Of a DNA stretch of 64,000 nt, positions 28 to 37,027 are shown one piece after another. The stretch is from positions 186,001 through 250,000 of the forward strand of contig CT868230.1 of the NCBI GenBank assembly GCA_000165425.1. Reading direction: 5' to 3'. The notes under the pieces were generated by a model that searched no databases, was not told the origin of the DNA, and saw nothing but the letters and a program-made list of their open reading frames with translations. A program made the translations under genes and the position numbers. Positions within the stretch are counted from its first letter, which is position 1, and every line of letters begins with the position of its first letter. This stretch comes from Paramecium tetraurelia. Lineage: Eukaryota.

Positions 28-177
28 NNNNNNNNNNNNNNNNNNNNNNNNNNNNNNNNNNNNNNNNNNNNNNNNNNNNNNNNNNNNNNNNNNNNNNNNN
101 NNNNNNNNNNNNNNNNNNNNNNNNNNNNNNNNNNNNNNNNNNNNNNNNNNNNNNNNNNNNNNNNNNNNNNNNNNNNN
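28..177. other. Assembly gap (150 N)
   Basis: Run of N. The 10-mer AATATATTGG occurs on both sides (18-27 and 178-187). Confidence 0.99.
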
Positions 178-408
178 AATATATTGGAACAAATAAAGCA
201 AGACTATTTTTGTCATCACATAATACATTTATTTTGATTGTGAAGAAACTTATATAATAATATGAACTTTTACTTTAAATATAAAATTTCATTATCAATT
301 AAACATAAATTTATGAAGATTTCTTAAATTCACTAATACGGCTATATCTTGAAATTAATATTAAAGTAAAATATTTTATACTGATTATTTTGAATATTTT
401 ATCATTAC

Positions 409-2346
409 TCAATCAGATTGGATATTTTTTTGAACTTCTGCTTCATCATTTGATTCAACTTATTCATCGATTAAGATTTCATCTAAAATTTTTAAAGAAT
501 TAGACCTATGAGTTTTTAAATTTTTATGTTCTCTGGGGATATATCAAGTACTGAGTGTAAGAGATCAATGGCTTCTTAATATTTTTTCAAATGAGATAGG
601 GTAATGGCTATAAAATTATATTTTTATAACCTTTAAAGGATGCAATCCAAAAATTATACGGATCCCTAGATAAAGCTGCACTAAAAGTTAGTAAAGCTTC
701 ATCATATTTTTTCTCATTCATTAAAATAAAGCCTTTAATCCAAAATAGAAATATCAATTGTGGAAATCTTATCAACAAATAGTCCATGTATTTAATTTGT
801 TAGTCGGAATCTAATTAAGCTAAGTCCTAAGTAAGAGTGTTTTGATACTTAGAATCTTTCAAATGTTATACGAATGTTATCAGGATTAAATACTAATATT
901 GATTCTAATAGCTCTAGAGATTAATCATTTTTGTTTTCATTTTTTAAAAACCTCACTAAAAATAAGCTCAAATACACCTTTTAAATGTTTAATCATCCAT
1001 GATGTTGGGTCGATTTCTATAAGCTTCTCTTAAATCTTTTATGCTTCTTCAATATTGTTATCCTTTATTAAAGATATTCCTTAAAAATAAATGGATTTAA
1101 TGCCTTTTAAGTACAATGCAAAAATATTCTATGGAAATTATTATATCATTTATTCAACTTCATTAGTGTCTTAGTGGAAATCACAGAACTCTCTTATAGT
1201 AAAAGTTGATATTGATGTATTCAACAAAAAGATGTCAAATTTTTGAGGAGAATTTTCTAAAATTTAATCAAGGATCTATTTAGCTTCTTCAGGATGTAAG
1301 GTTAGAAGTAACAAATTGCCTAAATTATAATATATTATACTTTTAGCTAGCAGAGTATAATTATTATCGGAATTAATTTTGACTACTTCTTCGAAACACT
1401 CTTTAGCTTCTGTAAAATTCCACAATTATAGTAAACAATAACCTGATAAAAGTTTTACAAATTACCCTTATAATAAATTGATGCAAAATCAGATTTATCC
1501 AAAAGTATGGCTTTATTATATACCTTAATTGCTGTATTAAATTAATGCAAATATCATAAACATTCTCCTAAAAATTAAATTGTTTTTAACCTTGTTTGAT
1601 ATATGCTTGAGCATTGTTGTTATTTATGAATTAAACTTTTTAATAACACTCTGATGCTTATTTAAATTATTGAATAGCTCTTAAACACTCGCCTGAAATT
1701 TAATTAGAATTTTACCTTTTCCGAATAAAGCTTATTCATTTTCTACATTCATATTTAAACATTCATCGTAGTATTCAATTGCCTTTCTGTATTATTATTA
1801 TTCAAATAAATAGCTACCTATTTTGTTATTCATTAACTCTTACCAATTTTTACTAAGATCTCTTCATCTTTCTAAATGAATAAGTTTAACTAAAAATTTT
1901 GATATGTATCTTCAATGGTTTTTCTTAATTTGTAAAGTGTTTGATCAATTGATTATTACATTGTTGATTTTACTCTTTCAAATAAGAATAAGTTTGCTAT
2001 TGTTTCTTAAATTTCATTTAAGTTCATATTGTTCATCACAGCCTCTAACCCAAAAACTTGATATTATAACCCTATTATCAATGTGTTGAATGACTCCTTT
2101 GCTAGGTCAAATTCATTTTTTGTGGCTGTAATAACTTCTTTAATTTTGCTTAGCTATTAATTAATGAAAATGTTAGCATCTTCCAATTTTTAAACAGCAT
2201 CCATATGCTCTATATGCTATTTCTATTTCAAACAATCCAAACAAAATATTCTATTTTAATTGCATTCTTATTTAAAGCAGCAGAATATGACGCTTTCATT
2301 AGGATGTAATTTACAATGTTAATTGCTTTTTTATTACTAAATCATT
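409..2346 (-). CDS. TPR-repeat protein with N-terminal Cys/His zinc-binding (B-box-like) domain; multi-exon
   Basis: Starts MIQQQKSNQHCKLHPNESVIFCCFKQECNQNRIFCLDCLKQKQHIEH. TPR exons of 102 nt at 978-1079, 1341-1442, 1466-1567, 1591-1692 and 1716-1817. Ends ...KNIQSD-TGA. Confidence 0.85.
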
Positions 2347-3054
2347 ATTAAATACAAAATTTTATAAATAAAGTAAATAAAATATACGTAAAAGTGTTCT
2401 TTCAAACGTGAAATATTCAATAATTATTATAAGAAGATACATAATTAATATAATTCTATAATATAAAATTTACTCTGCCATTGGTTATTAAATTTGATAA
2501 AATAGCACTTTTCTTAAGAAAAGTTGAATGCCTTAGTTTTAAGATATTAAGAGCAAATTTAAGGAAGGATACGTAATTAGACAATTCAATTTTTATGATA
2601 CTCCAAGCTACTCATTAGGGAAATTTGAGCATTTATCTACATATATATATATTCAATTTTATCAAAAAAACTAAATTTTAAATCGATAATAAAATATCTA
2701 AAATAAGGTGGATAAGTGAATTAGATTCATTTTATCTCGTAAATGGCTTCTTAAAATTTATTTCTTTTGAACTAACAATAACAATTTTAATTGAAATCAT
2801 GGTAAAGCATGATACAAAATTATTAATTAGTTTATTGTTTAATAAAGGCCGATTAATCCATTAATATTGTGATTTTATTCAGGTTAAATCGAATTAGTTA
2901 ATTGCTGTAAACATTTTAATTATTATAATTCTGTTTACTCAATTCTAAAATATATATAAACATGTAAATTAGAGATTATTAATAAATTAATGGATTTTCT
3001 ATTTAATTAAACTTTATGATTATATGATTTGAATAAATATTATAAATTTATTAT

Positions 3055-6000
3055 TCATTTTGATTTTGCAGAATTTGTCTTCTTAAAAACATCTTCACAT
3101 TATTCTACATCAAAATATAATTATTACTTTTTCTAGTTTGAACCCATTCATCATTTGGTTTAATTCTCAAGGCTTTATCAAAGATTGATAATGCTTCTGA
3201 ATATTGTTTTATTTCTTGTAGACATGCACCTAAATTTGTATAAGTCCCATTGCTACACTTTTTAAATAAGAGAAATATAATTATTAGGGTTAATACTCAA
3301 AGCAATATTAAATTATTTCAAAGCTTGGTCATATTGTTTAAACATCCTTAATATTTCACCTAATTATGAGAACTTATTACCCTTACAAGCCAATGAGTTA
3401 ACGTGTTTGGAATCATGCTTTAATGCAAAGTCAACCCATTATTCAGCTAAATTATACTAACCCTAAGCTTTTAAACAATCAGCTATTAATATTCACCATT
3501 TATTTACCTTTACAAAACAAAGCATTTACTGATTTAGAATCATAGGCCAAAATCTTTTCAGCAATTACTATTGATTCTTTACATTTACCCAAAGCTCTTA
3601 AATTATCAGCTAAAAATTAATTACTAAGTTACCTTTATAGTTTAATATACTCATGTTATCTGGATCTTATTCAAGTACCTTTTCAATCCATAGATTCGAT
3701 TCCTCATGTCTTTCTGTTGAATGTAAGAGTTGAGCTTATTAGGTTATAAAGTATTTTATACCTTTTTGTTCAATAACGGTTAGGTTAGTAGGATCAATGG
3801 TTAAATATTTGTCTATGTAGATGAGAGCTTCCGAATGTTGTCCTAATAGTCTTAAACAATTAGCTAACTAATAAAGAGGAATACATTTGCAAAGAATAGT
3901 TTCAGCATGATCTGGGTCTACTTTTAAAACTGCATCAGTCGATTCTAGAGCTTCAGAGAATCGGCCAAGTTTAAATAAGGTATTAGCTAAATGAATGTGA
4001 TTGATTACCTTTTATGAATAAGGTAGGAACATGATTAGGATCAATCTCTAGAACCAAATCAACACAAATAAGAGCCTCTTTATTTTTATTTTACAAATGT
4101 AAGCACTACGCTTTTAATTTATGATAAATTTTAATACTTTTGCAAATCAGAACATCTTTGTTCTAAAAATTAGTTTCTAAAACCTTATCAGCTTACTTAG
4201 ATGCCTCTACATGCTATCCCTTTTACAATAGCACATTCACTAAAAATATAATTTCAAGCATACCTTTACAACTAATGACTTACTCATTATTTGGATCCAG
4301 TGCAAGTACTTTATTGATGTATTCTAATGCCTCATCGTATTGTTTAAGGTTATATAAACATTGTGCTAGAGTTAATTGCTGAAAGATACCTTTACAACTT
4401 AAAATATCTATGTGATTTGGGTTTATCTCCAATACTTTATTACAATATAACAGAGCATCCAAATACCTTTTCAATTGTCTTAAGCAATCAGCTAAAGATA
4501 TTTGAATTTGATTTACCTTTACAACACATGGAATTTAAATTACTTGGATCTAACTCTAAAATCTTGTCAGATAACACAATTGAATTATCAATTTTGCCTA
4601 GCCAATATATGCATTAAACTAAAATATAATATATTAAAAACGTTTGCAATCTAAAGTGTTTATATGCTTTGGCTCTATTACCAAGGCTTTTTCTACTAAT
4701 TCTAGTGCTTACTAATACTACCCCATATTTTTTAACTAATTAGCTATTCAAATGCTTTCAGTTTGTACCTTTCTAACGTAAAATATTAACTGATTTAGGA
4801 TTGGCAACTACAGCTTTCTCTGACCAAATAGCAGCATCCTAATACTAACCAAGTAATCTTAAGCAACTAACTAAACATATTTTATTGAATGATACCTTTG
4901 CAATGTAAAGTTCTGGTATGTTCAGGATTTATAGCTAATACCTTATCAGACCAAACAATTGCATCTTTGTAATTCCCAAGCAATCTTAGATTATCAGCTA
5001 GAATATGATATTAAATTTACAACCTTTGCAATATAATGTATCTAAATGATTAGGGTCTATTTCTAAAACTTAATCAGCCCAATTTATGGCTTCTTGAAAT
5101 TGATCGAGTAAATATAAACTTTGAGCTTTGATATTAAATAAAAACATACTTTTAAATAATAATAATTCTAAATTTTTAGGATCCTTCTCTAACAATTTGT
5201 TTATACAAATTAACGCATCCTTATGATTACCTTCTTATTTTAAACTATTTGCTTAAGGTTAATATTATTTTACCCTTATAAAACAATGCTGTTTGATGAT
5301 TAGAGTCAATACTCAATACTTTATCAGCATAAGTTTCTACCTTTTTATATTTTTTACGCATAAATAAACTCATTGCTTATAATATTTTAACAATACTTTT
5401 AAAAATTAAAGCATTCAGATGCTTGGGATTCTTAGTTAAAATCTTACCAGCTAATTTAATAGCCTCACGATATTTCCCAAGGGAATATAAAATTTCAACT
5501 AAACTTATAGGATTAAAATAATACTTTTACATTCCAAGGCATCAATATCATTAGGATCTTATACCAATACTTTGTCAACAACTTTTTACGCTTCACTTGT
5601 TTTTTTTTGTACAAATAAGATTTTTGCTATATTTTCAAAATTAAATTACCTTTAACACTTAAAAGATTGACTTGGTTTGAATCTTCACTCAAAGTTTTAT
5701 CTATCAATTGAATCGCTTCTTCATACTTCTAGAGACCAAATAAACTTTGAACTTGTAATTAATGATTACTTTTACTTTTACAATATAATATTTTGGAATT
5801 GTTAGGATTTTCAACCAAAGCATTCTCAGCACATTCAAGAGCCTCTTAACATTTACCAACCATAACTAAACCATACACTATTTATATGAATTTAAGTTTA
5901 CATTTACAAAACAAGATATTTATATTTTTGGGATCTTATTTAAGGACTACATCTGCCAATTAAATAGATTTTTGATATTGTCCTAGTTCTCTTAAGCAAT

Positions 6001-7147
6001 TCACTATTAATTACAATTGCTAATTACCTTTATTAATCATAGAATTTAAATGATTAGGGTTTATATGCAACACTTTTTCAATAACATCCAATGCTTCTTT
6101 GTATTTTCCAAGAATACTTAGACAATAAACTAAAATATTAACAGATTCTTACTTTTACAATCTAAAGCTTTTATATGATTAGGTTCTATCTCAAGGACTT
6201 TATCAGCCCAAACTAGGGCTTCGTCATAATTTTCTGTTAACCTTAAACCGTAAGCTAAAAATTGTTAGGTATATACATTTCAGATAAAAGGCTTTAGAAT
6301 TAATTGGATTTAAAACCAATGATTAATTAAACATCTCAATAGCTTCTTTAAACATTTATTTCTCAGTTAACTTCTAACCTATCAAATTGAATATTAGATA
6401 GATACCCTTAACGCAAAGTTCTAATGATTACTGAATATCTTTAAGGTTTGAAACAATTTTTTTTTCCCTCGACTAGCTCTTTTTTTAAGTTGATATGTTA
6501 TTTTTTTGACTTCGTACACTAATATTCTCGTTAGATCTGCTTATCTTATCACTTGATATACTAATTTTATCACTCAATCCACCATCTTTTTACATAGCTT
6601 CTTAATATTTATATTCACTTAATCTACTAATCTTCTCACTTGATTAATTATCTACTTGATTGACCTCCATATTTTTCTCTTCACTTACAATTAACTTATT
6701 TTACAAATTTATTATTTATTGATTAAACATTGATCCATACTCTTAAATTGTTTTAATAGTCTCTTCTTTAAATTCTTTGTATTTCAACATTTAACTGACA
6801 ACTACATTTATTTCTTTTAGACTTAATTTCTCAATTCTCTCCTAGTCTAAAATATATTTTGTTTTTATTCCTTCCTTCAAATTATTAAAATTCTATATAA
6901 TTGCATTTACATCTTGAGATAACTCAATCATTAGACTTTGATAATCAGTCTCAAAATTTTCTATTTATTCAATAAATTAAGGAATATCTATCCAATCTTA
7001 CAAATGAGTTGAATGATGCTTATTTTAAACGCATTTCATGCAAAATAGTCTAAACTCTTTACACTGCTCATTTAGACATACCATTTTAATATTGCTCTTG
7101 TGTTCAGCCAAAGAGCATGGTAATTCTAGACTCTTTTCTTATATCAT
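3055..7147 (-). CDS. Large TPR-repeat protein: N-terminal Cys/His zinc-binding domain, coiled coil, about 26 TPRs; about 27 tiny introns
   Basis: Starts MIQEKSLELPCSLAEHKSNIKMVCLNEQCKEFRLFCMKCVQNKHHSTHL. TPR units such as AQCLYNLKQYDEALEYINKVLALDPNNE. GT..AG introns recur about every 126 nt from 3105 to about 6405. One donor near 3257 is out of register by 1 nt. Confidence 0.9.
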
Positions 7148-9798: not shown

Positions 9799-12700
9799 TC
9801 AGAAAACTAGATATCCTAAGATAATAGTTGTGAAACCTAGAATGTAACCTGAGGTATCTGTGTTGTTTGGAGTTGTTGTATTAGGATCTGTAGTGTTATT
9901 ATTATTAGGTTAAACAGCTGTGCATACTCCACATTTATTTGTAGAAGTGCTCCAAGTATATGTATATCCTGAAGTCAAGTAGCATTAATCTTGGGTGAAA
10001 GTAGCAGGGTCCTTTTCTTTACAATCAGCACCATCGACAACACAAATTTGTTAAGATTTTTAATCCCAACTTAAGAAATTAACGCAATTTCCATTATTAC
10101 TTTATTTATATGAAGCGCAGGTATGTGGATCACATTTGCTAGGAACGGTTGTTGTTCCTGATTTTGATTCAGGAGTAAATGAACATCTGTCTTTGGCATT
10201 TGCGCAGGCCTTTGGATCATTTTTAGCTTATGTGCATGATGTCATCAAGGCACATGTACCTTAGTTTTCAGTGGCACCTGTAGCAGTAGATTTAGTGAAG
10301 ACACAAATTCCATCCTTTCCTGCAGAGTTGCAAGCAATTTTATTTTGATATGATGTACTACTGCAATTTGCTTAGTCAATACAGATAGTTCCATTGGAAA
10401 CACATGTGGATAATCCAGCCTGACAGATAGATGTTGATATGCCTCCAGCAATATCTGAACATTGGTATACTCTGCATGCTCCAGCATTGTTATTGGCTGT
10501 AGCATCCCATAAGCATTTACCAGAAGGTCCATCAGATCCATTAGCAGTTGTACAAGCTATTTAAGAAGTATAAGATGCGCAAGTAGAAATTGCTAAACAA
10601 TTAGTTCCATCTGAAGTGCAACCTTTCAATTACCTGTAGCACTAATCATGAGTTATTCCTTTAAGATCCTTACAAACTTCATCTCTGCAAGTACCATTCT
10701 CCCAAGCACATTAACCTGTTGATGTAATCAAATTAGTTGTCTACTCAAGAACTGCACCAACATTGTTTAAGACACATGCTTCTTAAAGACCATAAGTTGA
10801 ACAAGCAGCAAGAGGAGCACAAGATGTTACACCATTAGTTGTGCATTTATTACTTGCTTCTTAACATAATCTGTGAGTCTTATAGAATGCATCAGTGCAT
10901 GAAGTATAAGCTTTACAAATAGCGGAATCAGTTGAATCAAGTGCTGGAACAGTCTTAATGCAAGGACCATCATATCCAACTCTGCATCCCTTTGTATTTG
11001 TTTCTGAACATAAAGTAATAGCCAAACAAGTTGATCCATCTGTAGTACATTAGCCTGAGATCTTTTAACATTCATCATGGTCTGTCCAAATTAGACTCTT
11101 GCATGAAGAATATTGGAAACAACCTCCATTTCCAGAGTTTGCACCAGAAATCCAAAGACATGGTTGATATGTTCCATTATACAATCCTTCAATACAAGCA
11201 GCTCTTACTGTAGCAGCTTCACAAGTTAACTGGGTGGTACATTTACCATTCAAGCCAGCAGTGCATTTAATTTTAGTAGTTGCAGCTTTGCATTCTGCAT
11301 GAGTAGCAAAGGAAAAATCTTAACATCCTTGATCTCTACATTTACCATTGTCCCAGGTACATTTATTAAGGGGTTAGCCTGCAACATTATTACATGCTGA
11401 TTCTGCTGTTGCAGCAGAGCATGTTGATTTAATAACACATCCTCCTCCTTACTTAGTTGTACATTCTTCTTTGTAGGCTATACATTCTGCTTCAGTGTCA
11501 TAATCAGTAGAAACAGGAGCTGTTGCACAAGTTCTTGAAACACAAGTGCTACTGGCTGTCAACCATTAACATTTTCCATTCTAATCATCTTTCACACATC
11601 CTGCAACATTAGTGACAGCTTAACATGAAGTTCTCAATACACATTTAGTACCATTAGTAGTACAACCAGCTTTTGCTTTTTAGCATTCGTCATCTGTAGT
11701 GAATGTGAAATCTTCGCAAATTTCAAGTTTACATTTACTACTTTCATCCAAAGTACATCCTGAGAAATAACTAGCACATCCATCTTTAGTGGTTACATCA
11801 CTTGGAGCAGTTGAACAAGCTTTTGTATAGCATGCACCATCCAAATATTAACATGCATTTCCTCCTTTATCCTTAACACATTATTTTTCAGTCATTCCTT
11901 CACATTTGTCAGGTCTAACAACACAACCCATATTATCTGATGCAACTGTACATGTACCATCATCCAAATATAATTTGCATTCATCATCGCTATCATAACT
12001 TTCTGTATCAGGTGCAGTTTCACATGTCTTAATTCTGCATTTAGCTGTGTCATCCCAAACACAGGTTCTCCCTTCAGAATCAACAAAGCATTGTGCTTAA
12101 CCATAATCAGTACAGTTTCCAACCTTTTAACATCCAGAAGCAGAAACTGTTCCATCTGCGGCTGTCACTATAGCAACTGTGCAATGGTCTGATTTCTTGG
12201 TTCCAGCATTAGCCTTATAGTAATCATAACAACCATTATGGTCAGTGTAGGAACTTCCTGCAGTTGTACAAGCTTTTTCCATGCATTTATTTGAACCATC
12301 TTCCTGTGTTACCATGACACATGGCCATTCAGCTGAGTTTAGGTAACAATTTTTATCATTATAACTGGAACATGTAGCCTATCTGTTTTAACATCCTACT
12401 CCTGTAGATTTAACTGTACATTTCAAGCTAGAAATTCCATTACATAATGCGTGAGTATTGTAAGAATCCTCAATTTTATCACATGAAAGATCTACACATG
12501 TCAAAGCCTTTTTTTCATTCCAGAAACAACTTCCTCCATTTGTGCATTATTCAGAGGATAAATAAGTATTACATGCAGCCTTAGGAATACAACCACCTAC
12601 TTTTGCAACTGTGCAAGTATTTAAATAAGTATTACAATCTGAATGAGTTAATGCTGTAGTAGTTGGTTTAGTATAACAAGTCTTTTTCACACATTATCCT

Positions 12701-15700
12701 CCATCGCTACCAACAACCCACTCACAATCTGCATCGGTAACAGAACCTATGCAGTCTGCTTAGACAGTAACTTCTGAACATTTATTTGGTGCATTTTTGC
12801 ATGCATCAGCTCCAGTCACTTTATTGGCTGTACAAGTTGACAAGTAAGTTGAACATGCAGAATGATTCCATGGTGTAGGCTTATTTGTACATGATTTAGC
12901 TTCACAAGCATTAGCAGCAGTATTAACGCTACAATTTGTATTGTAGGATTGACAATCACTATATGTTAATCCAGTACCTGTTACTTTAGCACAATCTGTT
13001 GCATTTATTTATATACAAGCAGCAGTTCCACTTGTATTCCAGTAACACTTAATTCCTCCAGAAGTGCTTACACAATTTGTAGATGAACCAGTGTAATCAG
13101 AGCATTTTGTTTTCACTTCAACGCAAGAAGAAGCATCACTATTTTTCACGCAAGAAGCATTGAATGCTTTACATATTGCATCAGAAGTATTAGTATTTGA
13201 TAATTATGCTTTCAATAGTTTGGGACAATCAGAGCTGGCAGTTGAAATTTATATACAAGAAGCAGTACCTCCTCCACTTGGGGTATACCAATAACATTTA
13301 GCTCCACCTGAAGTTTTTGTGCAAGATTTTTATACATAATCAGAACAATTTGTTTTCTTTTCAAAACATGCAGATCCATCTGATAAAGCATAGCAGCTTG
13401 AATTATATGATTAGCATTTATCATCTGTAAGGGCGCTACCTGCATCAGTTACTTTGGCACAATCACTACCAGCTGCTATAGCTACACAACTAGCTGCATT
13501 TGCTCCGGCAGCACCATCAGAATCATACCACAAACATGTTCCATCGGAACCCTTTACACAATCAGCTCCAGCAGCAGCAACATAAGAGCTACAAGTTCCA
13601 ATCGTTAAACAAGCAGATCCATCTGCTTTAACTGAGCATGATGTACTAAAGTCTTAACATATTTCATATGTTAATTTATCGGAGCCATTTTTAACAATTT
13701 TAGTACAATCTAATGTTGCATCAATGTCGGCACAATCAGTACCGCTAATCTTACACAATCCAGCGGTTGATTTTCTACAGCTTGCAAGTGCACTTGTATA
13801 ACCTGAACAAGCAGCTTTTTTATCAATACAAGCAGTACCAGCAAGGTTGACAGAACAAGTTGAATTAACAGCTTAGCATTAAGCAAAGGTCAAATTAGTT
13901 CCAGTTTTTTAAATACAAACAGTAGATTTTAATACACAATTAGTACCGTCCCAAAAACATTCTCCTGCTGTAGAGTATGAGCATGCATTTTAATCTGTTC
14001 CTGTACATGTTGCTGGTTTTGTCATACAAGCTTTTGTAGAAGCACTATTAATAGTACAACTTGAATCTAAAGATTTGCAATGATCCTCAGTGGAAACAGC
14101 TGTGCCAGATGCTGTTCCTTCAACCTTTGTATAGTCTGCACAAATTTTATTTTGACAAGCAGTTGTAGAATTAGCCTTGCAAGTATTTTTAGCAGCTTCA
14201 CAATTGGCATCACTATATGATGCCAAAACAATTTAAGCACAAGTCAAGGTACTAAAAGTCACACATGTATCATTTCCATTCCAATAGCATGAACCGCCAG
14301 CAGAATTAAGAACACATTAAGGTTTAGAAGTATAATCACTACAATTAGCTTTTCTGGGTATGCAACCTTTATTGTCTACTCTTTCGATAACAGTACAAGT
14401 ACTAACATAATCATTACATTTTTTATGTGTATTATATGAACCATCGTCTGTGGCATCAGAACATGTAGCTTCCCTACATGCAGCCTTATCCCAAATACAT
14501 TTTTTTCCAGATTTAGTGCTCTTACATTAATTCTATTCATATTATCCACAACTTTCCAATTTAGTCATACATGCAGTTGGAGTGCTACCTTTAGCTACTG
14601 TACATGCTGAACTCATTCCTGAAACGCCCTCACAAGCAACATGAGTAGTTAACTTAATTTTTTCACATACTAGGTCAACACAAGTATTATCTGAGTTCAA
14701 ATAACATGATTTATCAGTGGCTGTTTTTTCAGAGCAATTATATTAATTATAATCAGCACATTGAGAAGCTTTGTTTCGGCATCCACTATTTGAATTATTA
14801 ACAACACAACCATCAAAATAAGCCCTACAATTTGAATTAGTAAATGATGTGAGATATCCACCAGTACTGGGTGAGGTAATTGTATTATCTGATGCAGTGT
14901 CGCAACTTCTTGGCTAACATTTCTTAGAAGGACTAAAGACACATTTAAATCCTACTGATGAATAACAGTTGTCCTCAATTTAACGTGATGTGCAAGCAAA
15001 AGTAGTAGGATCAATACATCCATTTGCAGTATTGTTTACTAAACAATTATTTTTATAGCTGCCACATGCAGTATTATCGGTAGTTGTTGATGGTGCTGTG
15101 GAACATGATTTATCTTGACATTTACCACCAGACCATGCACAATCTCCGTTTAATGAATTGGAAACACAACCCTCCTATGTTTTGATAGCACCACAACTTG
15201 GTGGGATTGGCATACATCCTTTTCCAGTATTGTCAAGTGTACAAGATGGCATATGTGATTAGCATCCAGAATATGTAGTTATAGATTATGATGCTAAACG
15301 GCATTCTTATTTATAACAAGAGCTCTTATATTTGCATTTTGAACCACTTTTATCAACTTTACAATCTCCTGATTCTACAATGTTTTCGCAAATCATATCA
15401 ATACAAGCATTCTTTTAAGAATTAACTGTACAAGATGACAAATATCCATTGCATTTTTCATGTGATGTCTTAGAATCAGCTGGTGCATTTGCACAAGTCT
15501 TATCAAGACACTTACTCAAATCTTTATCCCAAACGCAATCTTTACTAGATTAATCCTTGAGACACACTTCTTAAACATCAATTCTATCACAGGTTGTAAG
15601 ATTTTAACAACCACCTCCTTTTTTAGGTATACAATTAGGCCAATAACTGCTACAATCAGTAAGTGAAACCAAGGTAGATGGTGCATTATCACATGATCTG

Positions 15701-16851
15701 ATTCTACATCCCTTTGAAGTAGCATTTACTGTACAGGTGGGGAGATATAAGGTACATGCTTCATGAGTTGTATTTGTAGTAGGGGCATTGTCACATATTT
15801 TATCTTTACATAATGTTCCATTAACTACACAAGGTGAATTATTTTTATCCTTCTCACATGCAACTACATCAAGGGAACTGCAAGTACCATTTTCTTTACA
15901 ACCTCCATCTTTCTTTGTAACACATCCTGGGATAAAGCCATTACATAAGGAGTTCGTATTCTTTGAAGGTGGGGCAGAATCACATTTATAATCCCTGCAT
16001 GAACCTTCAACCCAAATACATTATTAACCAGAACTATTAATTTTACAACCCTCTTATAGCTTTGCATCACTACAAATTGTTATTTATCTACATCCAGCTC
16101 CATTTGTAGTACAACTGGGATCATAATCTGTAAAACATTGTTCATGTCTTGTGTTGGAAGTGGGAGCTTAATCACAAGTCTTATTCACACATGCATTTCC
16201 ATTCCAATAGCATTTCTATTTTGCCTACTGATCTCCATATTTGCATTGTGGTTGTCCATCTTATGAAGCACAAGATGTAGCACTATCCTAACATCCAGTT
16301 CCACTCTTTGCAACAGTACATTTGACATTCTTAGCTCTACATTGTTCATCAGTTGTTAGGGTTTTTGGATATTGTTCACACAATGTAGCATCAATACATG
16401 CATTATCCTTCCAGAAACAATCTTTTTTATCAGAATTCACTACACATGAGACCTAATTCAAATATGATTTGCATTCTGCAATCTCTACACAATGAACTCC
16501 ATCTGTAATACATCTGTTAGATATAGCTTTGCAATCATCATCTGTAGTCTTTTTAAATGCTGTGCATCCTGTAAAATGGGTGCATTTATCAGTATTCCAT
16601 AAGCATCCAAAGGTCTTTACACAATCAGCTTGTGCGAAGTTTTAACAATAGGATGCATAAGTTGTTGTTACGGGAGGAGTAACAGTGCCTTTTGAGCACG
16701 TATTTTTAGTTTCATCCCATGAACAGCCAAGTGAAGTTCTCTTTGTGCAATCTGTCTTTGATAGTAATTGTGTACATGAACATTCAGTTATTGATGTTGT
16801 TACACTTAATGATATTCCTATCAGAAGCCAAAGGCATAAAATTTATTTCAT
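9799..16851 (-). CDS. Paramecium-type surface (immobilization) antigen, Cys-periodic, predicted GPI anchor, intronless, 2350 aa
   Basis: One frame of 7053 nt in the ciliate code; the Cys-rich ORF-track fragments at 11253, 12315 and 14226 share it. Signal peptide MKQILCLWLLIGISLS, repeated C-x-W Cys periods rich in Thr/Ala/Ser, and a Thr/Pro/Asn spacer before the hydrophobic tail DTSGYILGFTTIILGYLVF-TGA. Confidence 0.95.
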
Positions 16852-17768
16852 TTAAAGTATTATTTAAAAAGTACGTGCTAATTGTGAATTTATATAAATT
16901 ATTTGATTAATATATTTTTTGGTTTATCTTACGTTTGTTTTATTTTTAAAATTAATTATCAACATTTAATCTGTTTTTAAATTACATTATTAATAAAAAT
17001 ATTAATATTATAAATTTCTACGATATAAGAATTCTACTCCTCATCAGACGTTGCCCAAAGAAATAACTTTAATGTTTAGAACGATCACACCTATTTACAA
17101 ACATTTTTTAAATTCTACGTATCCTTTAACAACGCAATTTTCTCACCATCATATGAATCTACTTCTTCTTTCAATCCCTCGACACTCTTAATATGCAGGT
17201 ACAATCGAAATACTGTTTAAGTATATGAAAATCGAGAAATGCCACTTTTAAAAATAGAAAAAAAGGGGATTTTTTCATTGTTATAACATATATCTTATAA
17301 TTAAACAAGAGTAAGAAATTTTCTCATTACACTTTGTTATCATTCTTCTAATTGTGGGCTCCTTATCTCTAATCTCTATTGATTGATGAATAGAATATAA
17401 TTTCAATATATATTTCCATTAAACCATTTTTAGAATATATCAATTAAGTCTATCTGCTCTTTTCCTCAAAAAATAAGAATTTATTAGAGATTCAAAAGAA
17501 GTCAAAACATTCTAAAGTCTACCATAAAGAAAAAACAACAAACTATCTAGGGAATAAAATATAGAATCCCAGAAAATATATTTAAAGTTGGATATAAAGA
17601 AGGTGCTACTAAATGAGATAATTCTTTTCATAATATATAGTATTTTAAATACGGTTACCATTTGAATTTCATTAACATATTTTTATGTAAAAATAAATTA
17701 TGGAATTCTATAAAATTTATTTATAAAATATTATAATACTTATTAATAATTAAAGTAATAAATATAAA

Positions 17769-29818: not shown

Positions 29819-32800
29819 ATGAAGAAAAATAGATTCCAGCAACAAAAGGAGGAGCAGAAGAAACAAAATTATTTTGACGAAGAGGAAGATATTGATTTAG
29901 AAGATGATGGTCTATTTGGGAAAGAAGTATTAACAGCATGTAATCACTAATCATTTATTATCAGCCAAACCCTATGAAGAGTACTTCTAAAAGTTTAATG
30001 AGTTATACAACAATCACATCGTTAAGTTCTCAGCATTTGAAGAGGATTATCAAATCCCATTGACTTCGCCTGATTATGAAAACATCATTCAGAGTCATTT
30101 CATGGTTTACGAAAAGAACATGGGATTGTTTGATTTCATGAAGTCAGATAACAAAGTATTTGATAAGATTAGTGCATCCTTTGTCTTCATCGATAATTAA
30201 ATTAGATAAATAGAAGATCAAGTACATCAACAACTATTATTCTATAGTTCTATAAATTCCTTGATAAACTGACTATTTATGGAGAGTTGGCCGATCTTCA
30301 TTTGGAAGAAGAGAGAAAATTGACTGATGGTGAGGCTGAAATCATGATATGTAGAATGCTTGGCTAATTCAAGTAAATATATGACATTATTAAAAAACTC
30401 ATCAATTACATCACCCATTTGGTCAATCAATTGAATTTACTTTACAATAAAAAGGATCCTATTTCTAAAATCATTAAAATCTTTAACTTAAAATTTTCCA
30501 TTAGATACAATAGGAAGAGCATTGCAACTGCTTTTACATCTTAGACAATGTTGTAGAATAGAATGATTATCTTATAAGAACATTGGAATTATTGTAAGAG
30601 AATGATAAAAATTGTGAAACCAGATCCCACTAAATTTAATTCTAATGCCTAAAATGTTAGACAATTAGAAAAAATTATGATAAGATTAGACAAGACTGTA
30701 CTATCTGGTTCTTGTCTCTAATCAGTTTTAGCACAAAATTGGGATTAAAATGTGCATGAAAAAACAGGAAAAGAGAAAAATGCCAATATTCCTGCCATCA
30801 AAAACAATAAAGAATTCTACAATGTTCTCAATACATACCTCAAAGAAAGATATGAATTATTTGATAAAACCTTAGGAACTGCTAAAGAAATGTTCGAAAG
30901 AGATTTATTATTACCAACATTTTGTGTTTATGCTTTAGTCAGATAATTATATCAAAATGATGAGAATAGAGATCTATGGAAAAATCTTTGGTCTCTTTAA
31001 AAGAAAGTTCCAATGGTGGATGGACACTCACAAGTTCTATGTTATTTGAGTAAATTTCTTATGGAAGTTACTCCATTATCTAAAAAGAGTTCAACTATGG
31101 ATCCAAAAGATCCTATTGCCAATTTTAAGAGTTATCTATAAAGATTATCAGCCTCATTTTAAAGTTCATTAACTGCTTAATATGTTGCATTCACAACTTG
31201 GATTGTTAGAGTTGACTCATTCTCTTGTAGTTAAGCCTCTTTTAACAATATTGATAAAATTGATAGGGAAAGAGCACAGAGATATATTGAAGAGAGAATG
31301 AATTAGAGAGTAATTTTAGTGTTGTAAGGATTGACAATAGCTTCTCAAACAAGGAATCTATTATAAGCATTGCTATTAGGACATTTTGGATTAGAAGAAT
31401 AATCTTTAGATATGTCATTATCAAAGGATGTTGTTTTGGCTGTGGAGATGCTAAAAGCAATAGAGTATTATTTCGAATAAAAATATGATGTCTTCTAGCC
31501 TGCTTTAATCTAAAATCACATCACTAAAAATGGATAGAGAATCATATAATAAGTATTAGAGAAGATGAAGGCAAATATTAAGAGTTTTGGTACAGGAGGT
31601 GCAGAAATTTTGGGAGCATTATAAATTTTGAATTCTATTCTCAAGAGCACACTTTCGCCTTTGAAATTATAGACAATGTATTATTTGATGGATTTCATGG
31701 TTGCAAAGGATATATTCACTAATTCAGAGAAGGAAGATTTTAGAAATATTCTTTGGAAACTTGATAAATTAATTTTATTACCACTCTATGTCAAAAAGGT
31801 GACAGCAAGTACCTATTTTTATTGGTGTAGAGAATTGCTACCTTCATTCTTTTAATACATCTATTAAAATCCATCATAAGCAAAAAGGTTCTAATTTTTA
31901 TTGAATGCTGTTTCTGATTGTTCAATCTAATTAAAAGATTGTATGCACTTAGAAAATCCTGATGAATTATTTGATTCTTTTAGATAATATGTTGTTAAGG
32001 AGTTTTATGCTTAATATTTGTAACCCTTGGCCAGAGACATCGAGGATTATTTAAGAATTTAAGTGCATACAGTGTTGATTGAAAAAATAACAGCTTTAAA
32101 CCCATTCAAATAATAAGTGAAAGACTTGAAAAGATTACTAGATATTGATTACGTATTGATATTTGATTCAATTGTGAATTTAAGAACTGAAATCAATCAG
32201 ATACTCAATGAAACATTCTATAATATCAATGTTCTCAATATGTATGATCAAGAAACCTATGAATAAATGAGAAGTTTAGCAAATTCTAAATTTGGATTAA
32301 ACTTAATAAATGTTTATTTGCCAACTTAAACAGTTGATTAAGGAAACTTCGATGTGCTCAATGTTCTCAAGAATATCCAACAATTCTTTACTAAATACAC
32401 CTACAATTTATATTAGTAATAATTTGTTTAGGTATATAAGTTTATATTATCAATATAGGTAACATCGGAGAGTAAATAAGTCTATTCAATTAGTATTCAA
32501 TAAATTGCAGATTCAATTAGAACGCATGGTATTGGTATCCTGAGTACAACAGTTAATAGTGTGTATAAATTCTTACAAAAGTATAATATTATATGTGAAT
32601 CATTAGAAAAATTTAAATGTTTTCACAATTTTTATTTGATGATCTAATTCAATCTCCCTTGGTCAGAGAAGACAGATTTTTTAGGGAAAAAGAAGGATGA
32701 ATTGGATGGCCAATATCCTTATGATAGAGCAGAGGCATTATACAAAGAGATCAAGAAAATGGGTACATTTGATGATGGAACAAATTACCTTGACAAATTC

Positions 32801-33569
32801 AGAACTTTAATAACACAAATAGGAAATTCATTAGCATTTGTTAGATTATTGAGATCAGCAGCTTTACATGTTAATTCAAAATGTTTAGAATACGTTCCAA
32901 GTTAATACAATCCTACTCAATTAGAATCTTTGACAAGAGAAGCTGGATTTAGTGGTAAATATATTTTTTGATATCCAATAATAGATGCCACTGTAAGTAC
33001 TGCAAAGGAGTTGGAGGAGATATTTACATTATATAAGAGTAGTTTTTCAGAGAAGATTGATTATATAAACCTGTTGTTGAAGGCATTCTCAAGTATCAAT
33101 ACACCAGAAAATGAACATTTGTCTCTATTTTATTTAATTGTTCCAACATTGACTCTGAATTTCATTGAAAAAATGTTAATTTCAAAAGATCAAATTGGTA
33201 AGAAGAACTCTACTACTGAAGTCTTTATTAGTGTAAATAACTATTTGTATTAATATAGGATGATGGTTTCATTTTGGGAATTCAGTTTTTCTTAACCTTA
33301 TTAGATTAAAAAGGATAATTTGAATCTCTTCATTGGAGGAAAGAAATCAAAAATAAATTCAATCTTGATTTGAAATCAGCCAAGACCTTAGCCACGACAA
33401 AACCAAATTAATCATAAAGAGCAACAGATGAAGTAATTCTTATATCAAATCTTATTAGATCAATATGTAAAAAGAATTGTCATTACGTAAATTAAATATG
33501 CAATATGATGAATTCCAAATGTTCTTCTATGCTTTCAATTCATGTAAAATTCTATTTCTAGGAGAATGA
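29819..33569 (+). CDS. WASHC4: WASH complex subunit 4 (SWIP/KIAA1033)
   Basis: SIRTHGIGILSTTVNSVYKFL, YPYDRAEALYKEIKKMG..YLDKFRTLITQIGNSLAFVRLLRS, DDGFILG..LLDQ..FESLHW. Several tiny introns. Apparent +1 insertions at about 30495-30575 and 32690. Confidence 0.9.
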
Positions 33570-35969: not shown

Positions 35970-36959
35970 AATATTGATAAATCTGCTATTTTATAAAGAA
36001 ATTAATTCTATGTATTTAGGAGCAATATTGGACAACTCTTGATTGTTTTCATATTGTTCGACTTTATTAGATCCTTCTAATTCTCTTCCTTCAGTTCCCA
36101 TAGCAGTAACGTAGATCTGGATCATTCTCCTTGCATTTTCCTCAAACTACATAAATTAGAATCAAAGAATTTCAATACATATATTATTTTGTGTAACCTA
36201 TGCATGTTTGTTTTTAATTGCTCAAGAGCTTCAATATGGGAGGGTTTGCTTCCATCATTTTCCAATATTTAATTGATATGTCTTAATTTCATTTTACTCG
36301 TTTTATGGACCCTTTTTGTTGGCCAAAATAAATAAAGAATATTAAAATCTAATTATACCAAAAGTTATGAATCAAATTCTCATAAATTCAAAGTCATTTC
36401 AAATTGAACTATCGTACCTCCAGTCCCCAATTCTGTACTTCAATCTAACCCATCAAATGTAGTTGACTACTAGAAAACCTCCATTTTTTACTTTTCCAGC
36501 CTTTAAATCAATTAGGTCTTTCTTGCCAACATAATCTATAAGATCTAGATTTGATCTCACCTTAGAATAAAGCAGAAAATCAGAATAATTAGCTTGCTAC
36601 ACCTTTCAAAGATTCCACCTAAATAGGGGATGATCCACTTATATTTATTGATTTCTAACAATTATAATCTATTTAATTCACAATGGAATAAAATTCAGTA
36701 CATTATTAATCTTAAACCTTCTGGGATGAATGTACTTTAACGCAAACTCACTAAAATTCAACACAATATTTCATTTATCATATCTTTGTTTGGGCTCTTC
36801 TTTATCATAAATTGTTATCTCTTTATCAACTTCATTGTCAAATTATTTCAACGTTAGTATTCCATGATCTATTTGTTGGATTTAATTATCTATCATAAAT
36901 GGTCTTCTTTCAGAAATAACAAAAATACAGAAATGTAAAATTAGACAATGGTTCGTCAT
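35970..36959 (-). pseudogene. Decayed gene with signal-peptide-like start; family not identified
   Basis: MTNHCLILHFCIFVISERRPF... followed by in-frame TGA codons, a damaged intron donor at about 36775, and frame breaks. Confidence 0.4.
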
Positions 36960-37027
36960 TATAATTAATTTATCGAACTGGTATTTTTATGTATATTTCA
37001 ACTAATTTTAAATTAATTGAATTTATA

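What the first reader, a model, noticed from the sequence alone, without database searches (positions are those of the whole stretch)
3105..6406. TPR array built from exact 102-nt, phase-1 exons: one exon per repeat, about 26 in tandem
Seen: GT..AG introns of about 21-28 nt recur at one fixed position in every TPR. Exons I counted (3128-3229, 4264-4365, 4390-4491, 4517-4618) are exactly 102 nt = 34 codons with phase-1 boundaries. Repeat sequences and introns are strongly diverged while length and phase are kept. Established: symmetric exons can be duplicated, deleted, skipped or shuffled without breaking frame, and Tetrahymena has a comparable LRR gene family built from 90-nt exons. Inference: this is a modular, exon-cassette TPR family that could diversify binding surfaces, possibly as intracellular recognition proteins, through unequal recombination or exon skipping.
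Basis: partly seen in the sequence, partly recalled or inferred. Interest (0 to 1): 0.8.

Follow-up and report, generated by a model that had tools for sequence, protein, structure and literature searches.

The report
Paramecium TPR gene, one exon per repeat
A Paramecium gene encodes about 26 tetratricopeptide repeats, nearly every one on its own 102-base exon split at the same codon, and this looks like the relic of old tandem exon duplication in a known repeat-gene family, not an actively shuffling cassette system.

Summary
The gene lies on the minus strand and uses the ciliate code. A chain of 25 GT..AG introns (21-27 nt) is spaced by exactly 102 nt, giving 24 consecutive 102-nt, phase-1 exons; 200 shuffles gave chains of at most 5. 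Each exon is one TPR, split in the codon for TPR position 8. Exon 25 is 101 nt, so the 26th TPR-like exon (3128-3229) is out of frame.

The protein has a Cys/His zinc-finger-like motif, a coiled coil and the TPR array. Fifty-nine relatives cover the N-terminal module; the 10 looked up are from four other Paramecium species. A tandem paralog has four more 102-nt phase-1 TPR exons and an in-frame stop. Stranded RNA reads cover the gene, and one contig lacks exactly the first intron.

Exons are about 50% identical, neighbours are no more alike than distant ones, and introns cannot be aligned. Exon skipping has not been reported in P. tetraurelia (PMC8997360). I read this as old tandem duplication in a birth-and-death family; ongoing cassette diversification is unsupported. 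An invariant TA at exon bases 10-11 (26 of 26) may mark germline IES sites. This is a new member of a known kind, of moderate interest.

The parts
6406..7147 (-). Exon 1 (742 nt). ATG at 7147. Encodes a Cys/His motif, a long coiled coil, a low-complexity linker and the start of the first TPR. Ends in phase 1.
   Evidence: Relatives align from their own residues 2-10, which supports this start. AlphaFold model: mean pLDDT 81, above 95 for residues 10-150.
6379..6405 (-). Intron 1 (27 nt, GTA..TAG).
   Evidence: An RNA-type contig of run X6 (618 nt, no mismatches) lacks exactly 27 nt here.
3381..6378 (-). Core array: 24 consecutive exons of exactly 102 nt, phase 1-1, one TPR each, separated by 23 introns. 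Exons: 6378-6277, 6254-6153, 6129-6028, 6003-5902, 5877-5776, 5751-5650, 5626-5525, 5498-5397, 5375-5274, 5251-5150, 5125-5024, 4997-4896, 4870-4769, 4743-4642, 4618-4517, 4491-4390, 4365-4264, 4239-4138, 4110-4009, 3986-3885, 3863-3762, 3734-3633, 3609-3508, 3482-3381.
   Evidence: Chain search. Exon translations and splice sites. Shuffle control. Pfam TPR hits.
3360..6276 (-). Introns 2-25, 21-27 nt: 6276-6255, 6152-6130, 6027-6004, 5901-5878, 5775-5752, 5649-5627, 5524-5499, 5396-5376, 5273-5252, 5149-5126, 5023-4998, 4895-4871, 4768-4744, 4641-4619, 4516-4492, 4389-4366, 4263-4240, 4137-4111, 4008-3987, 3884-3864, 3761-3735, 3632-3610, 3507-3483, 3380-3360.
   Evidence: Of all 25 introns, 12 are multiples of 3 and all 12 lack an in-frame TGA if retained; the other 13 must be removed to keep the frame.
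3259..3359 (-). Exon 25: TPR-like but only 101 nt with the GT donor at 3258 (103 nt with the donor at 3256). It breaks the phase-1 series.
   Evidence: My exon HMM scores it 20.4 bits.
3230..3258 (-). Intron 26 (29 nt; 27 nt with the alternative donor at 3256).
3128..3229 (-). Exon 26: 102 nt and TPR-like, encoding the family's usual last repeat, but out of frame with exon 25 in the sequence as given.
   Evidence: Its C-terminal pattern matches the family cap in relatives (judged by eye).
3105..3127 (-). Terminal intron (23 nt, GTA..TAG), at the same repeat position and phase as the others.
3055..3104 (-). Terminal mini-exon in the TPR frame, with stop codon 3057-3055. It is used only if the frame is intact.
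3167..3169 (-). Stop codon reached in the sequence as given (29-nt intron spliced). The product is 1117 aa.
1341..2345 (-). 5' part of a tandem paralog. ATG at 2345 and exon 1 at 2345-1844 with the same Cys/His motif. Then four 102-nt phase-1 TPR exons (1817-1716, 1692-1591, 1567-1466, 1442-1341) separated by 23-nt introns, and bounded by a 26-nt intron upstream and a 21-nt intron downstream. In-frame TGA at 1556-1554. Degenerate TPR-like matches continue down to about 519.
   Evidence: N-termini are 33% identical over 49 aa, E 3e-07.

Best explanation
This is a transcribed nuclear gene of a Paramecium species, on the minus strand, read with TAA/TAG as glutamine.

Protein. It belongs to a Paramecium family with three parts:
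- an N-terminal eight-ligand Cys/His motif (C-x4-H-x7-C-x4-C-x6-C-x2-C-x5-H-x2-H);
- a coiled coil of roughly 130 residues;
- a C-terminal repeat domain, here 25-26 TPRs.
By inference, the TPRs form a multi-turn superhelical protein-binding scaffold, and the coiled coil lets the protein oligomerise.

Gene structure. One 102-nt exon per TPR, with a 21-27-nt intron after the first base of the codon for TPR position 8. The best explanation is repeated tandem duplication (unequal crossing-over) of an ancestral unit of about 126 nt that already held one exon and one intron. Because every unit is phase 1-1 and a multiple of three long, any gain or loss of whole units keeps the frame. Exon length then stayed at exactly 34 codons because the TPR fold tolerates no indels. 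Intron length stayed near the Paramecium optimum.

Age. The duplications in this gene are old: silent sites and introns are saturated. The family evolves by birth and death. Tandem paralogs exist, repeat number varies, the neighbour carries an in-frame stop, and here a 1-nt deficit lies before the last repeat.

Shown: the anatomy, the TPR identity, the existence of the family, transcription from the minus strand, and splicing of intron 1.
Inferred: splicing of the other introns, the duplication mechanism, and the scaffold function.
For: - 25 introns are spaced by exactly 102 nt; shuffles give chains of at most 5.
- All 24 core exons are phase 1 and translate to TPR units.
- Pfam TPR_2 and TPR_1 give E 2e-25 and 8e-25 on 4009-4741, and hit the three other array segments tested.
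- 0 TGA in 1097 coding-frame codons, against 20 and 60 in the other frames.
- Splice signals: GTA 23 of 25, TAG 19 of 25; intron GC 0.20 against exon GC 0.29.
- RNA: 102 and 69 reads were laid from two oligo-dT stranded runs, all with the first mate on the + strand, covering 3051-7127. An X6 contig lacks the 27-nt intron 1.
- The share of 31-mers held by 12 probable RNA runs is 0.48-0.62. The expectation is 0.61-0.64 for fully spliced mRNA and 0.95 for unspliced.
- Genus: the ORF at 9799-17040 matches the Paramecium surface antigen domain at E 1e-224.
- Family: 59 representatives match exon 1 at E<=1e-3. My exon HMM finds TPRs in 35 of these 59. The 10 looked up are Paramecium proteins.
- In 57 aligned members, C24, C29, R33, C36, C39, H45 and H48 are at least 90% conserved.
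- Same intron site in relatives: 90 of 110 consecutive TPR pairs have the expected 1-aa linker. Four insertions of 8-10 aa sit directly after position 7, begin with G or S and end with L/I then A/G, as a retained phase-1 3n intron would read.
- The tandem paralog has four 102-nt phase-1 TPR exons.
- Old age: exon identity is 0.505; lag 1 is 0.515 against a permutation mean of 0.505; intron alignment score is 2.17 against 1.84 for shuffled introns.
Against: - Only 1 of 25 array introns is directly shown spliced. Reads were 58 nt and depth 0.3-4.6, so no joints were listed.
- The 31-mer share argument is indirect. The run type is the tool's guess, and about 1.6% strain divergence would give the same share. 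X6's laid contigs have no mismatches, which argues against that for X6 only.
- Exon 25 is 101 nt, so the family-typical last repeat and C-terminal cap are out of frame. The gene may be decaying, or the assembly may have a 1-nt error.
- 12 of 25 introns are 3n without a stop. PMC8997360 (passages) says this class is counter-selected genome-wide.
- No orthologue DNA was available, so collinearity and copy-number stability are untested.
- The function is inferred from domain types alone.
Confidence: 0.8

Rival explanations
1. Active exon-cassette system. The 102-nt units are currently being duplicated, deleted, exchanged between paralogs or skipped in mRNA to diversify the binding surface, like the Tetrahymena LRR 90-bp arrays.
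For: - Every unit is symmetric (1-1), so any such event keeps the frame.
- Repeat number differs widely among family members.
- Paralogs sit in tandem.
- PMC3464196 (passages) attributes multi-copy IESs to 'expansion or recombination' of TPR and WD40 repeats in P. tetraurelia.
- Tetrahymena LRR arrays show recurrent clonal expansions (PMC6564038, passages).
Against: - The highest identity between any two exons here is 0.686.
- There is no adjacency effect.
- The lag-9 excess (0.529 against 0.505, p 0.006) does not survive correction for 20 lags.
- Introns cannot be aligned.
Confidence: 0.12
2. Decaying gene. The focal copy is a young pseudogene, or a truncated allele, in a birth-and-death family. 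The regular exon array is only its inherited skeleton.
For: - The 1-nt deficit in exon 25 puts the conserved last repeat and cap out of frame.
- The tandem neighbour has an in-frame TGA in its third TPR exon and degenerate repeats downstream.
- RNA depth is low.
Against: - No TGA in 1097 codons up to the break.
- All 25 splice-site pairs are intact.
- The gene is transcribed from the correct strand.
- The break removes only about 50 C-terminal residues.
- A single-base assembly error is an equally simple explanation.
Confidence: 0.2
3. Parallel intron gain. The introns were inserted independently into each repeat at a recurring proto-splice site (AAAG|GT in the codons for positions 7-8), and were not inherited with each duplicated unit.
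For: The exon side of every donor is AAA plus one base, usually G (A in 25 of 25 at -4 and -3, A in 22 of 25 at -2, G in 15 of 25 at -1). A favourable site therefore exists in each repeat.
Against: - It needs 25 or more independent insertions at exactly the same base.
- The same site and phase recur in the tandem paralog and, by inference, in relatives from other species. That is simpler to explain if the site was inherited.
Confidence: 0.03
4. The short GT..AG segments are not introns but translated insertions or a chance pattern.
For: 12 of 25 are multiples of three with no in-frame TGA, so they could be read through.
Against: - 13 of 25 would shift the frame.
- The periodicity is far beyond the shuffles.
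- Intron 1 is absent from an RNA-type contig.
- Relatives' protein models have 1-aa linkers in 90 of 110 repeat pairs.
Confidence: 0.02

Closest known systems
Tetrahymena LRR gene family with arrays of exactly 90-bp exons (Xiong et al. 2019, PMC6564038; passages read)
   Same: It is a ciliate repeat-protein family. It has tandem arrays of exons of one exact length and a single intron phase throughout, so each junction codon is shared between neighbouring exons. It shows a variable number of units per gene.
   Different: That family is LRR, 90 bp, phase 2; this one is TPR, 102 nt, phase 1. In Tetrahymena there are nearly 50,000 such exons, with recent clonal expansions and ectopic recombination. 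Here I see only two genes, and their exons are saturated with change. [quoted passage not shown]
IES-dense TPR-motif genes of Paramecium tetraurelia, e.g. PTET.51.1.G1500001 (Vitali et al. 2019, PMC6771405; passages and the Fig. 8 legend read)
   Same: They are Paramecium TPR genes described as having 'TPR coding exons'. [quoted passage not shown] My exons carry an invariant TA at bases 10-11 (26 of 26), which would fit that.
   Different: That paper concerns IES retention. In the passages I read it does not state the 102-nt length, the phase or the intron position. I have no germline sequence, and I did not show that this gene is related to PTET.51.1.G1500001.
Annotated 'Tetratricopeptide repeat protein' models of the P. 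aurelia complex, e.g. XP_001428099.1 / GSPATT00030930001 and CAD8079958.1
   Same: They share the N-terminal Cys/His motif and coiled coil (23-38% identity to exon 1, best E 3e-18), the TPR consensus and the C-terminal cap pattern. Annotation run-ons after TPR position 7 point to the same intron site.
   Different: Their models are 88-829 aa, with up to about 8 detected TPR units, and many are truncated. This gene has 25-26 repeats. No close orthologue (over 40% identity) was found.
TRIM-type B-box and coiled-coil modules, e.g. TRIM72 (7xt2)
   Same: A small cross-brace-like Cys/His finger is followed directly by a long coiled coil and a C-terminal substrate-binding repeat domain. In relatives the same N-terminal module is joined to TPRs (32 of 57 sequences) or to WD40 propellers (8 of 57).
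   Different: - No Pfam B-box or RING match.
- Foldseek found nothing at E<=0.001; the top rows are B-box, ZZ and RING domains at E 0.28-2.
- The TRIM72 match (Z 6.6, rmsd 5.2, 82 residues aligned) is tied with generic coiled coils.
- There is no RING domain.

Membership tests
Tetratricopeptide repeat (Pfam TPR_1 PF00515 / TPR_2 PF07719) | Significant match to the 34-residue profile, in tandem. | tested here: met
   TPR_2 E 2e-25 and TPR_1 E 8.4e-25 on 4009-4741. All 4 array segments tested score above the curated cut-offs.
Tetratricopeptide repeat (Pfam TPR_1 PF00515 / TPR_2 PF07719) | Consensus small or hydrophobic residues at positions 8, 20 and 27 and Pro at 32 (consensus positions recalled). 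| tested here: met
   Counts over the 26 units: A20 in 21, V or A at position 27 in 19, P32 in 21, L11 in 25, L28 in 25. Position 8 is the split codon and is mostly A, S, I, V, T or L.
Exact-length exon arrays of the Tetrahymena LRR type | Three or more consecutive exons of one exact length. | tested here: met
   24 consecutive 102-nt exons here and 4 in the neighbouring gene.
Exact-length exon arrays of the Tetrahymena LRR type | One intron phase throughout the array. | tested here: met
   Phase 1 at all 25 introns. The Tetrahymena arrays are phase 2.
Exact-length exon arrays of the Tetrahymena LRR type | A genome-wide peak in exon length carried by one domain family. | not testable with these tools
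   No genome is held for this window. There are only two genes in the window, plus indirect signs in relatives.
Exact-length exon arrays of the Tetrahymena LRR type | Recent clonal expansion or ectopic recombination, seen as closely similar exons within and between genes. | tested here: not met
   Maximum exon identity 0.686, mean 0.505, no adjacency effect, introns cannot be aligned. This was tested within this one gene only.
Paramecium Cys/His finger, coiled coil and TPR family | The conserved N-terminal Cys/His ligand pattern. | tested here: met
   C24, C29, C36, C39, H45 and H48 are at least 90% conserved in 57 sequences, and C11 and H16 are in the consensus. The query has all eight.
Paramecium Cys/His finger, coiled coil and TPR family | A long helical coiled-coil region after the finger. 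| tested here: met
   Helices 55-98 and 110-187, with pLDDT above 95 up to residue 150.
Paramecium Cys/His finger, coiled coil and TPR family | The family's C-terminal cap after the last TPR, in frame. | tested here: inconclusive
   The cap pattern is present in exon 26 and the terminal mini-exon (judged by eye). It is out of frame because exon 25 is 101 nt.
TRIM / B-box proteins | A B-box zinc finger recognisable by profile. | tested here: not met
   No Pfam family at E<=0.01 for exon 1. At E<=1 the first 57 residues match only Rhodanese_C (E 0.01), and the paralog matches zf-UBR (E 0.02). No PDB sequence match at E<=10.
TRIM / B-box proteins | The B-box plus coiled-coil fold. | tested here: inconclusive
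   Foldseek: the best rows are the PML B1-box (E 0.28) and the TRIM39 B-box (TM 0.59 of target, rmsd 2.8); none reaches E<=0.001. VIA: TRIM72 at Z 6.6, tied with coiled coils at Z 6.0-6.3.
TRIM / B-box proteins | An N-terminal RING domain. | tested here: not met
   The protein starts 10 residues before the Cys/His motif, and no RING family was hit.
IES-dense TPR genes of P. tetraurelia (Vitali et al. 2019) | A germline IES near the 5' end of most TPR exons. | not testable with these tools
   No germline sequence is available. The only indirect sign is TA at exon bases 10-11 in 26 of 26 units, and in 4 of 4 in the neighbour.

The most novel reading that the evidence does not exclude
The array may be periodic on three levels. 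Each TPR would have its own 102-nt exon, its own phase-1 intron and its own germline IES, the IES excised at the invariant TA ten bases into the exon.

The codon at TPR position 11 is NTA in 26 of 26 units, while other leucine codons in the array are NTA in only 50 of 102 cases. That is the pattern expected if the TA is needed for precise IES excision.

If so, incomplete or imprecise excision during macronuclear development, or retention of the many stop-free 3n introns (which nonsense-mediated decay cannot detect), could give somatic or transcript-level variants of the TPR surface. That would make this family a Paramecium counterpart of the Tetrahymena LRR arrays, with a developmental source of diversity in place of exon skipping.
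Probability: 0.12. Interest if true: 0.75.

Novelty: new member of a known kind. Interest (0 to 1): 0.4.

Why it matters
Exact-length, single-phase exon arrays are the clearest footprint of exon duplication as a way to build repeat proteins. Tetrahymena's 90-bp LRR arrays were reported as unique (PMC6564038).

A TPR counterpart in Paramecium, with a different length and phase, would suggest that ciliates build large repeat-protein families this way more than once. It would also give a simple genome-wide marker, a 102-nt phase-1 peak in exon length, for tracking that family.

For annotation, the regularity predicts the correct gene model. Several annotated relatives look truncated, or carry insertions, exactly at this intron site.

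The invariant TA and the excess of stop-free 3n introns link the locus to two Paramecium-specific quality-control topics, IES excision and dependence of splicing on nonsense-mediated decay. Both links can be tested with existing kinds of data.

For this gene alone, the finding is an ordinary product of old tandem duplication.

Tried and rejected
- Whole genome: none is held, so no exon-length histogram and no paralog census.
- Word-indexed protein database. With exon 1, among longer proteins, there were no hits. With an unspliced TPR segment there were only 18 generic TPR proteins at 32% identity or less, none recognisably Paramecium. Neither search helped with orthologues.
- Earlier scan notes: nothing for this genome or for these words.
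- Rfam on the whole window: no family.
- Plus-strand ORFs across the array (4001-4888, 4893-5711): no Pfam family at E<=1. I take them to be antisense artefacts of a code with one stop codon.
- A most-parsimonious ORF model needs only 9 of the 25 array introns, because many are stop-free multiples of three. I rejected it as the gene model in favour of the strict 102-nt chain.
- Alternative donors and acceptors to bring exon 26 into frame: none found.
- RNA runs: no listed holder is on record as RNA. The lay of two raw RNA runs listed no joints, other letters or molecule ends. With 58-nt reads and depth below 5, this says nothing about splicing of introns 2-25, about exon skipping or about the 1-nt deficit.
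- Higher-order periodicity: only a weak lag-9 excess, which does not survive correction.
- Literature searches for a 102-nt or 102-bp exon description, for Paramecium TPR exon structure, and for a B-box/TPR family found no explicit description. The exceptions are the passing 'TPR coding exons' remark in PMC6771405 and the TPR-repeat IES remark in PMC3464196.
- Supplements of those papers were not opened and may list the gene models.
- Jaillon et al. 2008 and Saudemont et al. 2017 were not read. They are cited only as quoted in PMC8997360.


Full report
**What is in the sequence**

The region is AT-rich, with GC 0.25-0.27 in 2-kb windows. Read on the minus strand with TAA/TAG as glutamine, TPR-like peptides appear in all three frames and hop frame about every 126 nt.

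I searched for GT..AG segments of 17-39 nt separated by exactly 102 nt. This finds one chain of 25 introns, from 6405-6379 to 3380-3360, and therefore 24 consecutive exons of exactly 102 nt. With segments of 18-35 nt, other spacings from 96 to 108 nt give chains of only 2-4. Two hundred base shuffles give a maximum of 5 and a mean of 2.25.

Every exon begins with the last two bases of a split codon and ends with the first base of the next, which is phase 1. Numbering from the conserved Ala20 and Pro32, the split codon is TPR position 8. Each exon therefore encodes positions 8-34 of one repeat and 1-8 of the next (the TPR numbering is recalled).

Intron properties:
- Length 21-27 nt, mean 23.9.
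- GT..AG in 25 of 25, GTA in 23 of 25, TAG in 19 of 25.
- GC 0.20, against 0.29 in exons.

The coding frame holds no TGA in 1097 codons, against 20 and 60 in the other two frames. Pfam TPR_1 and TPR_2 match all four array segments I submitted, with a best E of 2e-25.

**The ends of the gene**

Exon 1 (7147-6406, 742 nt) starts at an ATG that matches where relatives start.

At the 3' end the 25th TPR unit is 101 nt with the GT donor at 3258, or 103 nt with the donor at 3256. No donor/acceptor pair restores phase 1. As given, the protein ends 20 residues into exon 26 at TGA 3169-3167, for a length of 1117 aa.

In its own TPR frame, exon 26 (3229-3128, 102 nt), a 23-nt GTA..TAG intron (3127-3105) and a short last exon encode what looks like the family's normal C-terminus. 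Relatives end their last repeat with a Trp-containing variant, followed by a short x-x-C-E-x-x-L/F tail, and this locus has the same pattern (judged by eye).

So the sequence carries either a real 1-nt frameshift just before the last repeat or a single-base assembly error. Read depth there was 0.3-0.75, which cannot decide between them.

**Organism and expression**

The following features place the window in the genus Paramecium:
- the genetic code;
- the roughly 24-nt introns, which match the 25-nt average given for P. tetraurelia in PMC8997360 (passages);
- a 2413-codon ORF at 9799-17040 that matches the Paramecium surface antigen domain in 24 stretches (E 1e-224).

I did not try to go further than the genus.

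Two oligo-dT stranded RNA runs of the same species label gave 102 and 69 laid reads. All have the first mate on the + strand, which in most stranded libraries means RNA from the minus strand. They cover 3051-7127 at depth 0.3-4.6. No joints were listed, because the reads were 58 nt and depth was low.

One contig of run X6 (618 nt, no mismatches) spans 6335-6979 and lacks exactly 27 nt at intron 1.

Twelve runs that the tool guesses to be RNA hold 0.48-0.62 of the sampled 31-mers. I compute 0.61-0.64 for a fully spliced mRNA, 0.84 if only the frame-restoring introns were removed, and 0.95 if unspliced. This agrees with complete splicing but is indirect.

**The protein and its family**

Exon 1 has no Pfam family and no PDB sequence match. 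A full phmmer scan of 1.84 billion representatives found 59 relatives at E<=1e-3, of which 24 are at E<=1e-10. They are 23-38% identical and mostly align from their own N-terminus. The ten I looked up are annotated proteins of P. tetraurelia, P. primaurelia, P. pentaurelia and P. sonneborni, nearly all named 'Tetratricopeptide repeat protein'.

I aligned 55 of the 59 relatives plus the two window genes; four long relatives were left out. C24, C29, R33, C36, C39, H45 and H48 are at least 90% conserved, and C11 and H16 are in the consensus. The motif is C-x4-H-x7-C-x4-C-x6-C-x2-C-x5-H-x2-H.

With this alignment AlphaFold gives mean pLDDT 81, above 95 for residues 10-150. The model has a small finger, then helices 55-98 and 110-187, then a disordered linker at 189-218.

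Fold searches are suggestive but not significant:
- Foldseek's top rows are B-box, ZZ and RING domains at E 0.28-2.
- The all-against-representatives search puts TRIM72 first (Z 6.6, rmsd 5.2, 82 residues aligned, model 9-99), but this is tied with plain coiled coils.

Of the 57 aligned sequences, 32 carry TPRs and 8 carry WD40 propellers. The N-terminal module is thus combined with different repeat domains, much as the TRIM B-box and coiled-coil module is. I do not file the protein as a TRIM or B-box member, because the profile test failed and there is no RING.

**Is the exon design a family feature?**

Two lines of evidence say yes.

First, the next gene downstream on the same strand (ATG 2345) has the same Cys/His motif: 33% identity over 49 residues, E 3e-07. 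It then has four consecutive 102-nt, phase-1 TPR exons separated by 23-nt introns, between a 26-nt intron upstream and a 21-nt intron downstream. Its third TPR exon holds an in-frame TGA (1556-1554), and its later repeats are degenerate. It is probably a decaying copy.

Second, my exon HMM finds TPRs in 35 of the 59 annotated relatives. Their annotated models give two further signs.
- 90 of 110 consecutive repeat pairs have the expected one-residue linker.
- Four pairs have 8-10 extra residues directly after position 7. These begin with G or S (N|GT) and end with L/I then A/G (..TTA G|CT), which is exactly what a retained 3n phase-1 intron at this site would read as.
- About ten models run on into non-TPR sequence right after position 7, starting G-I, G-Y, G-K or S-I (judged by eye).

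As an in-window contrast, another TPR-containing ORF (33699-34901, plus strand) carries its TPR matches inside one continuous 400-codon frame.

In print, PMC6771405 speaks of 'TPR coding exons' in a P. tetraurelia gene, with IESs at their 5' ends (Fig. 8 legend). PMC3464196 notes multi-copy IESs due to expansion or recombination of TPR repeats. My searches found no explicit description of a 102-nt phase-1 array.

**How old, and is it still moving?**

- The 26 units are on average 50.5% identical in DNA (composition expectation 29.6%, maximum 68.6%) and 33% identical in protein.
- Third codon positions are 42% identical, against 33% expected from composition.
- Adjacent exons (0.515) are no closer than the permutation mean (0.505).
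- The only excess is at lag 9 (0.529, p 0.006), and it does not survive correction for the 20 lags tested.
- Intron cores align no better than shuffled ones, 2.17 against 1.84.

Nothing in this gene therefore points to recent duplication, conversion or exchange.

It has not been reported in P. tetraurelia, and its tiny introns are recognised by intron definition (PMC8997360, passages). In P. bursaria, intron retention and alternative 3' sites were the most frequently regulated events (PMC12862383, passages).

Over longer times the family clearly changes. Repeat number ranges from a handful to 26. There are tandem paralogs, one copy has a stop, and one has a frame break. This is birth-and-death evolution by unequal crossing-over. 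The 1-1 symmetry is what makes that harmless to the reading frame.

**Best reading**

An ancestral unit of one 102-nt exon plus one short intron was duplicated in tandem many times. The exon length is frozen by the TPR fold and the intron length by the Paramecium splicing optimum.

The product is probably an oligomeric scaffold made of a finger, a coiled coil and a TPR superhelix of about three turns. The figure of roughly eight repeats per turn is recalled. The function is inferred from domain types only.

My confidence is 0.8 for the anatomy and its origin. It is much lower for any specific function.

**Two unexplained details worth a follow-up**

First, the codon at TPR position 11 is TTA (21), CTA (4) or ATA (1). 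That gives TA at exon bases 10-11 in 26 of 26 units, and in 4 of 4 in the neighbour. All other leucine codons in the array are NTA in only 50 of 102 cases. A constraint on the dinucleotide itself is what one expects at an IES excision site. This fits the 'IES at the 5' end of TPR exons' remark in PMC6771405, but I have no germline DNA to test it.

Second, 12 of 25 introns are multiples of three and none of these has an in-frame TGA. Random introns of this composition would be stop-free 84% of the time, so this is not striking on its own. Genome-wide, however, this class, which nonsense-mediated decay cannot detect, is said to be counter-selected (PMC8997360, passages).

**Verdict**

It is not supported on ongoing diversification, and exon skipping is unlikely. 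The locus is a new member of a known kind and is of moderate interest.

Noticed in passing
window 3128-6378 (minus strand), bases 10-11 of each 102-nt exon; also 1341-1817: TA is invariant at exon bases 10-11. The codon at TPR position 11 is TTA 21, CTA 4, ATA 1, which is 26 of 26, and 4 of 4 in the neighbouring gene. Other Leu codons in the array are NTA in only 50 of 102 cases. This may be a footprint of one germline IES per exon.
   Followed up: partly
window 3360-6405 (minus strand): 12 of 25 introns are multiples of three and all 12 lack an in-frame TGA. Their retention would add 7-9 residues at TPR position 8 without triggering nonsense-mediated decay.
   Followed up: partly
window 3255-3260 (minus strand): Exon 25 is 101 nt where 102 is expected. 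The exon ends AAA|GT where 22 of the other 25 donors have AAAN|GT. The family-typical last repeat and C-terminal cap are therefore out of frame. This is either a real frameshift or a single-base assembly error.
   Followed up: partly
window about 400-2345 (minus strand): Tandem paralog with the same Cys/His N-terminus and four 102-nt phase-1 TPR exons. It has an in-frame TGA at 1556-1554 and degenerate repeats downstream, so it is probably a pseudogene.
   Followed up: partly
window 9799-17040 (minus strand): An uninterrupted 2413-codon ORF with 24 matches to the Paramecium surface antigen domain (PF01508, E 1e-224). Its GC is 0.35-0.37, well above the rest of the window.
   Followed up: no
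relatives P0019-P0077: The same N-terminal Cys/His and coiled-coil module is fused to WD40 beta-propellers in 8 of the 57 aligned sequences, where 32 have TPRs. This is a TRIM-like modular family in Paramecium.
   Followed up: no
window 28-177: A run of 150 N, which is an assembly gap near the start of the window and inside or just beyond the neighbouring paralog.
   Followed up: no
window 30164-32971 (+), 33699-34901 (+), 36467-38158 (+), 45233-46642 (-), 48123-49385 (+): Ordinary conserved genes by Pfam: a WASH complex subunit, a different TPR protein in one continuous ORF, a Mem_trans transporter, a NUBPL/ParA-type P-loop NTPase, and a kinesin motor.
   Followed up: no
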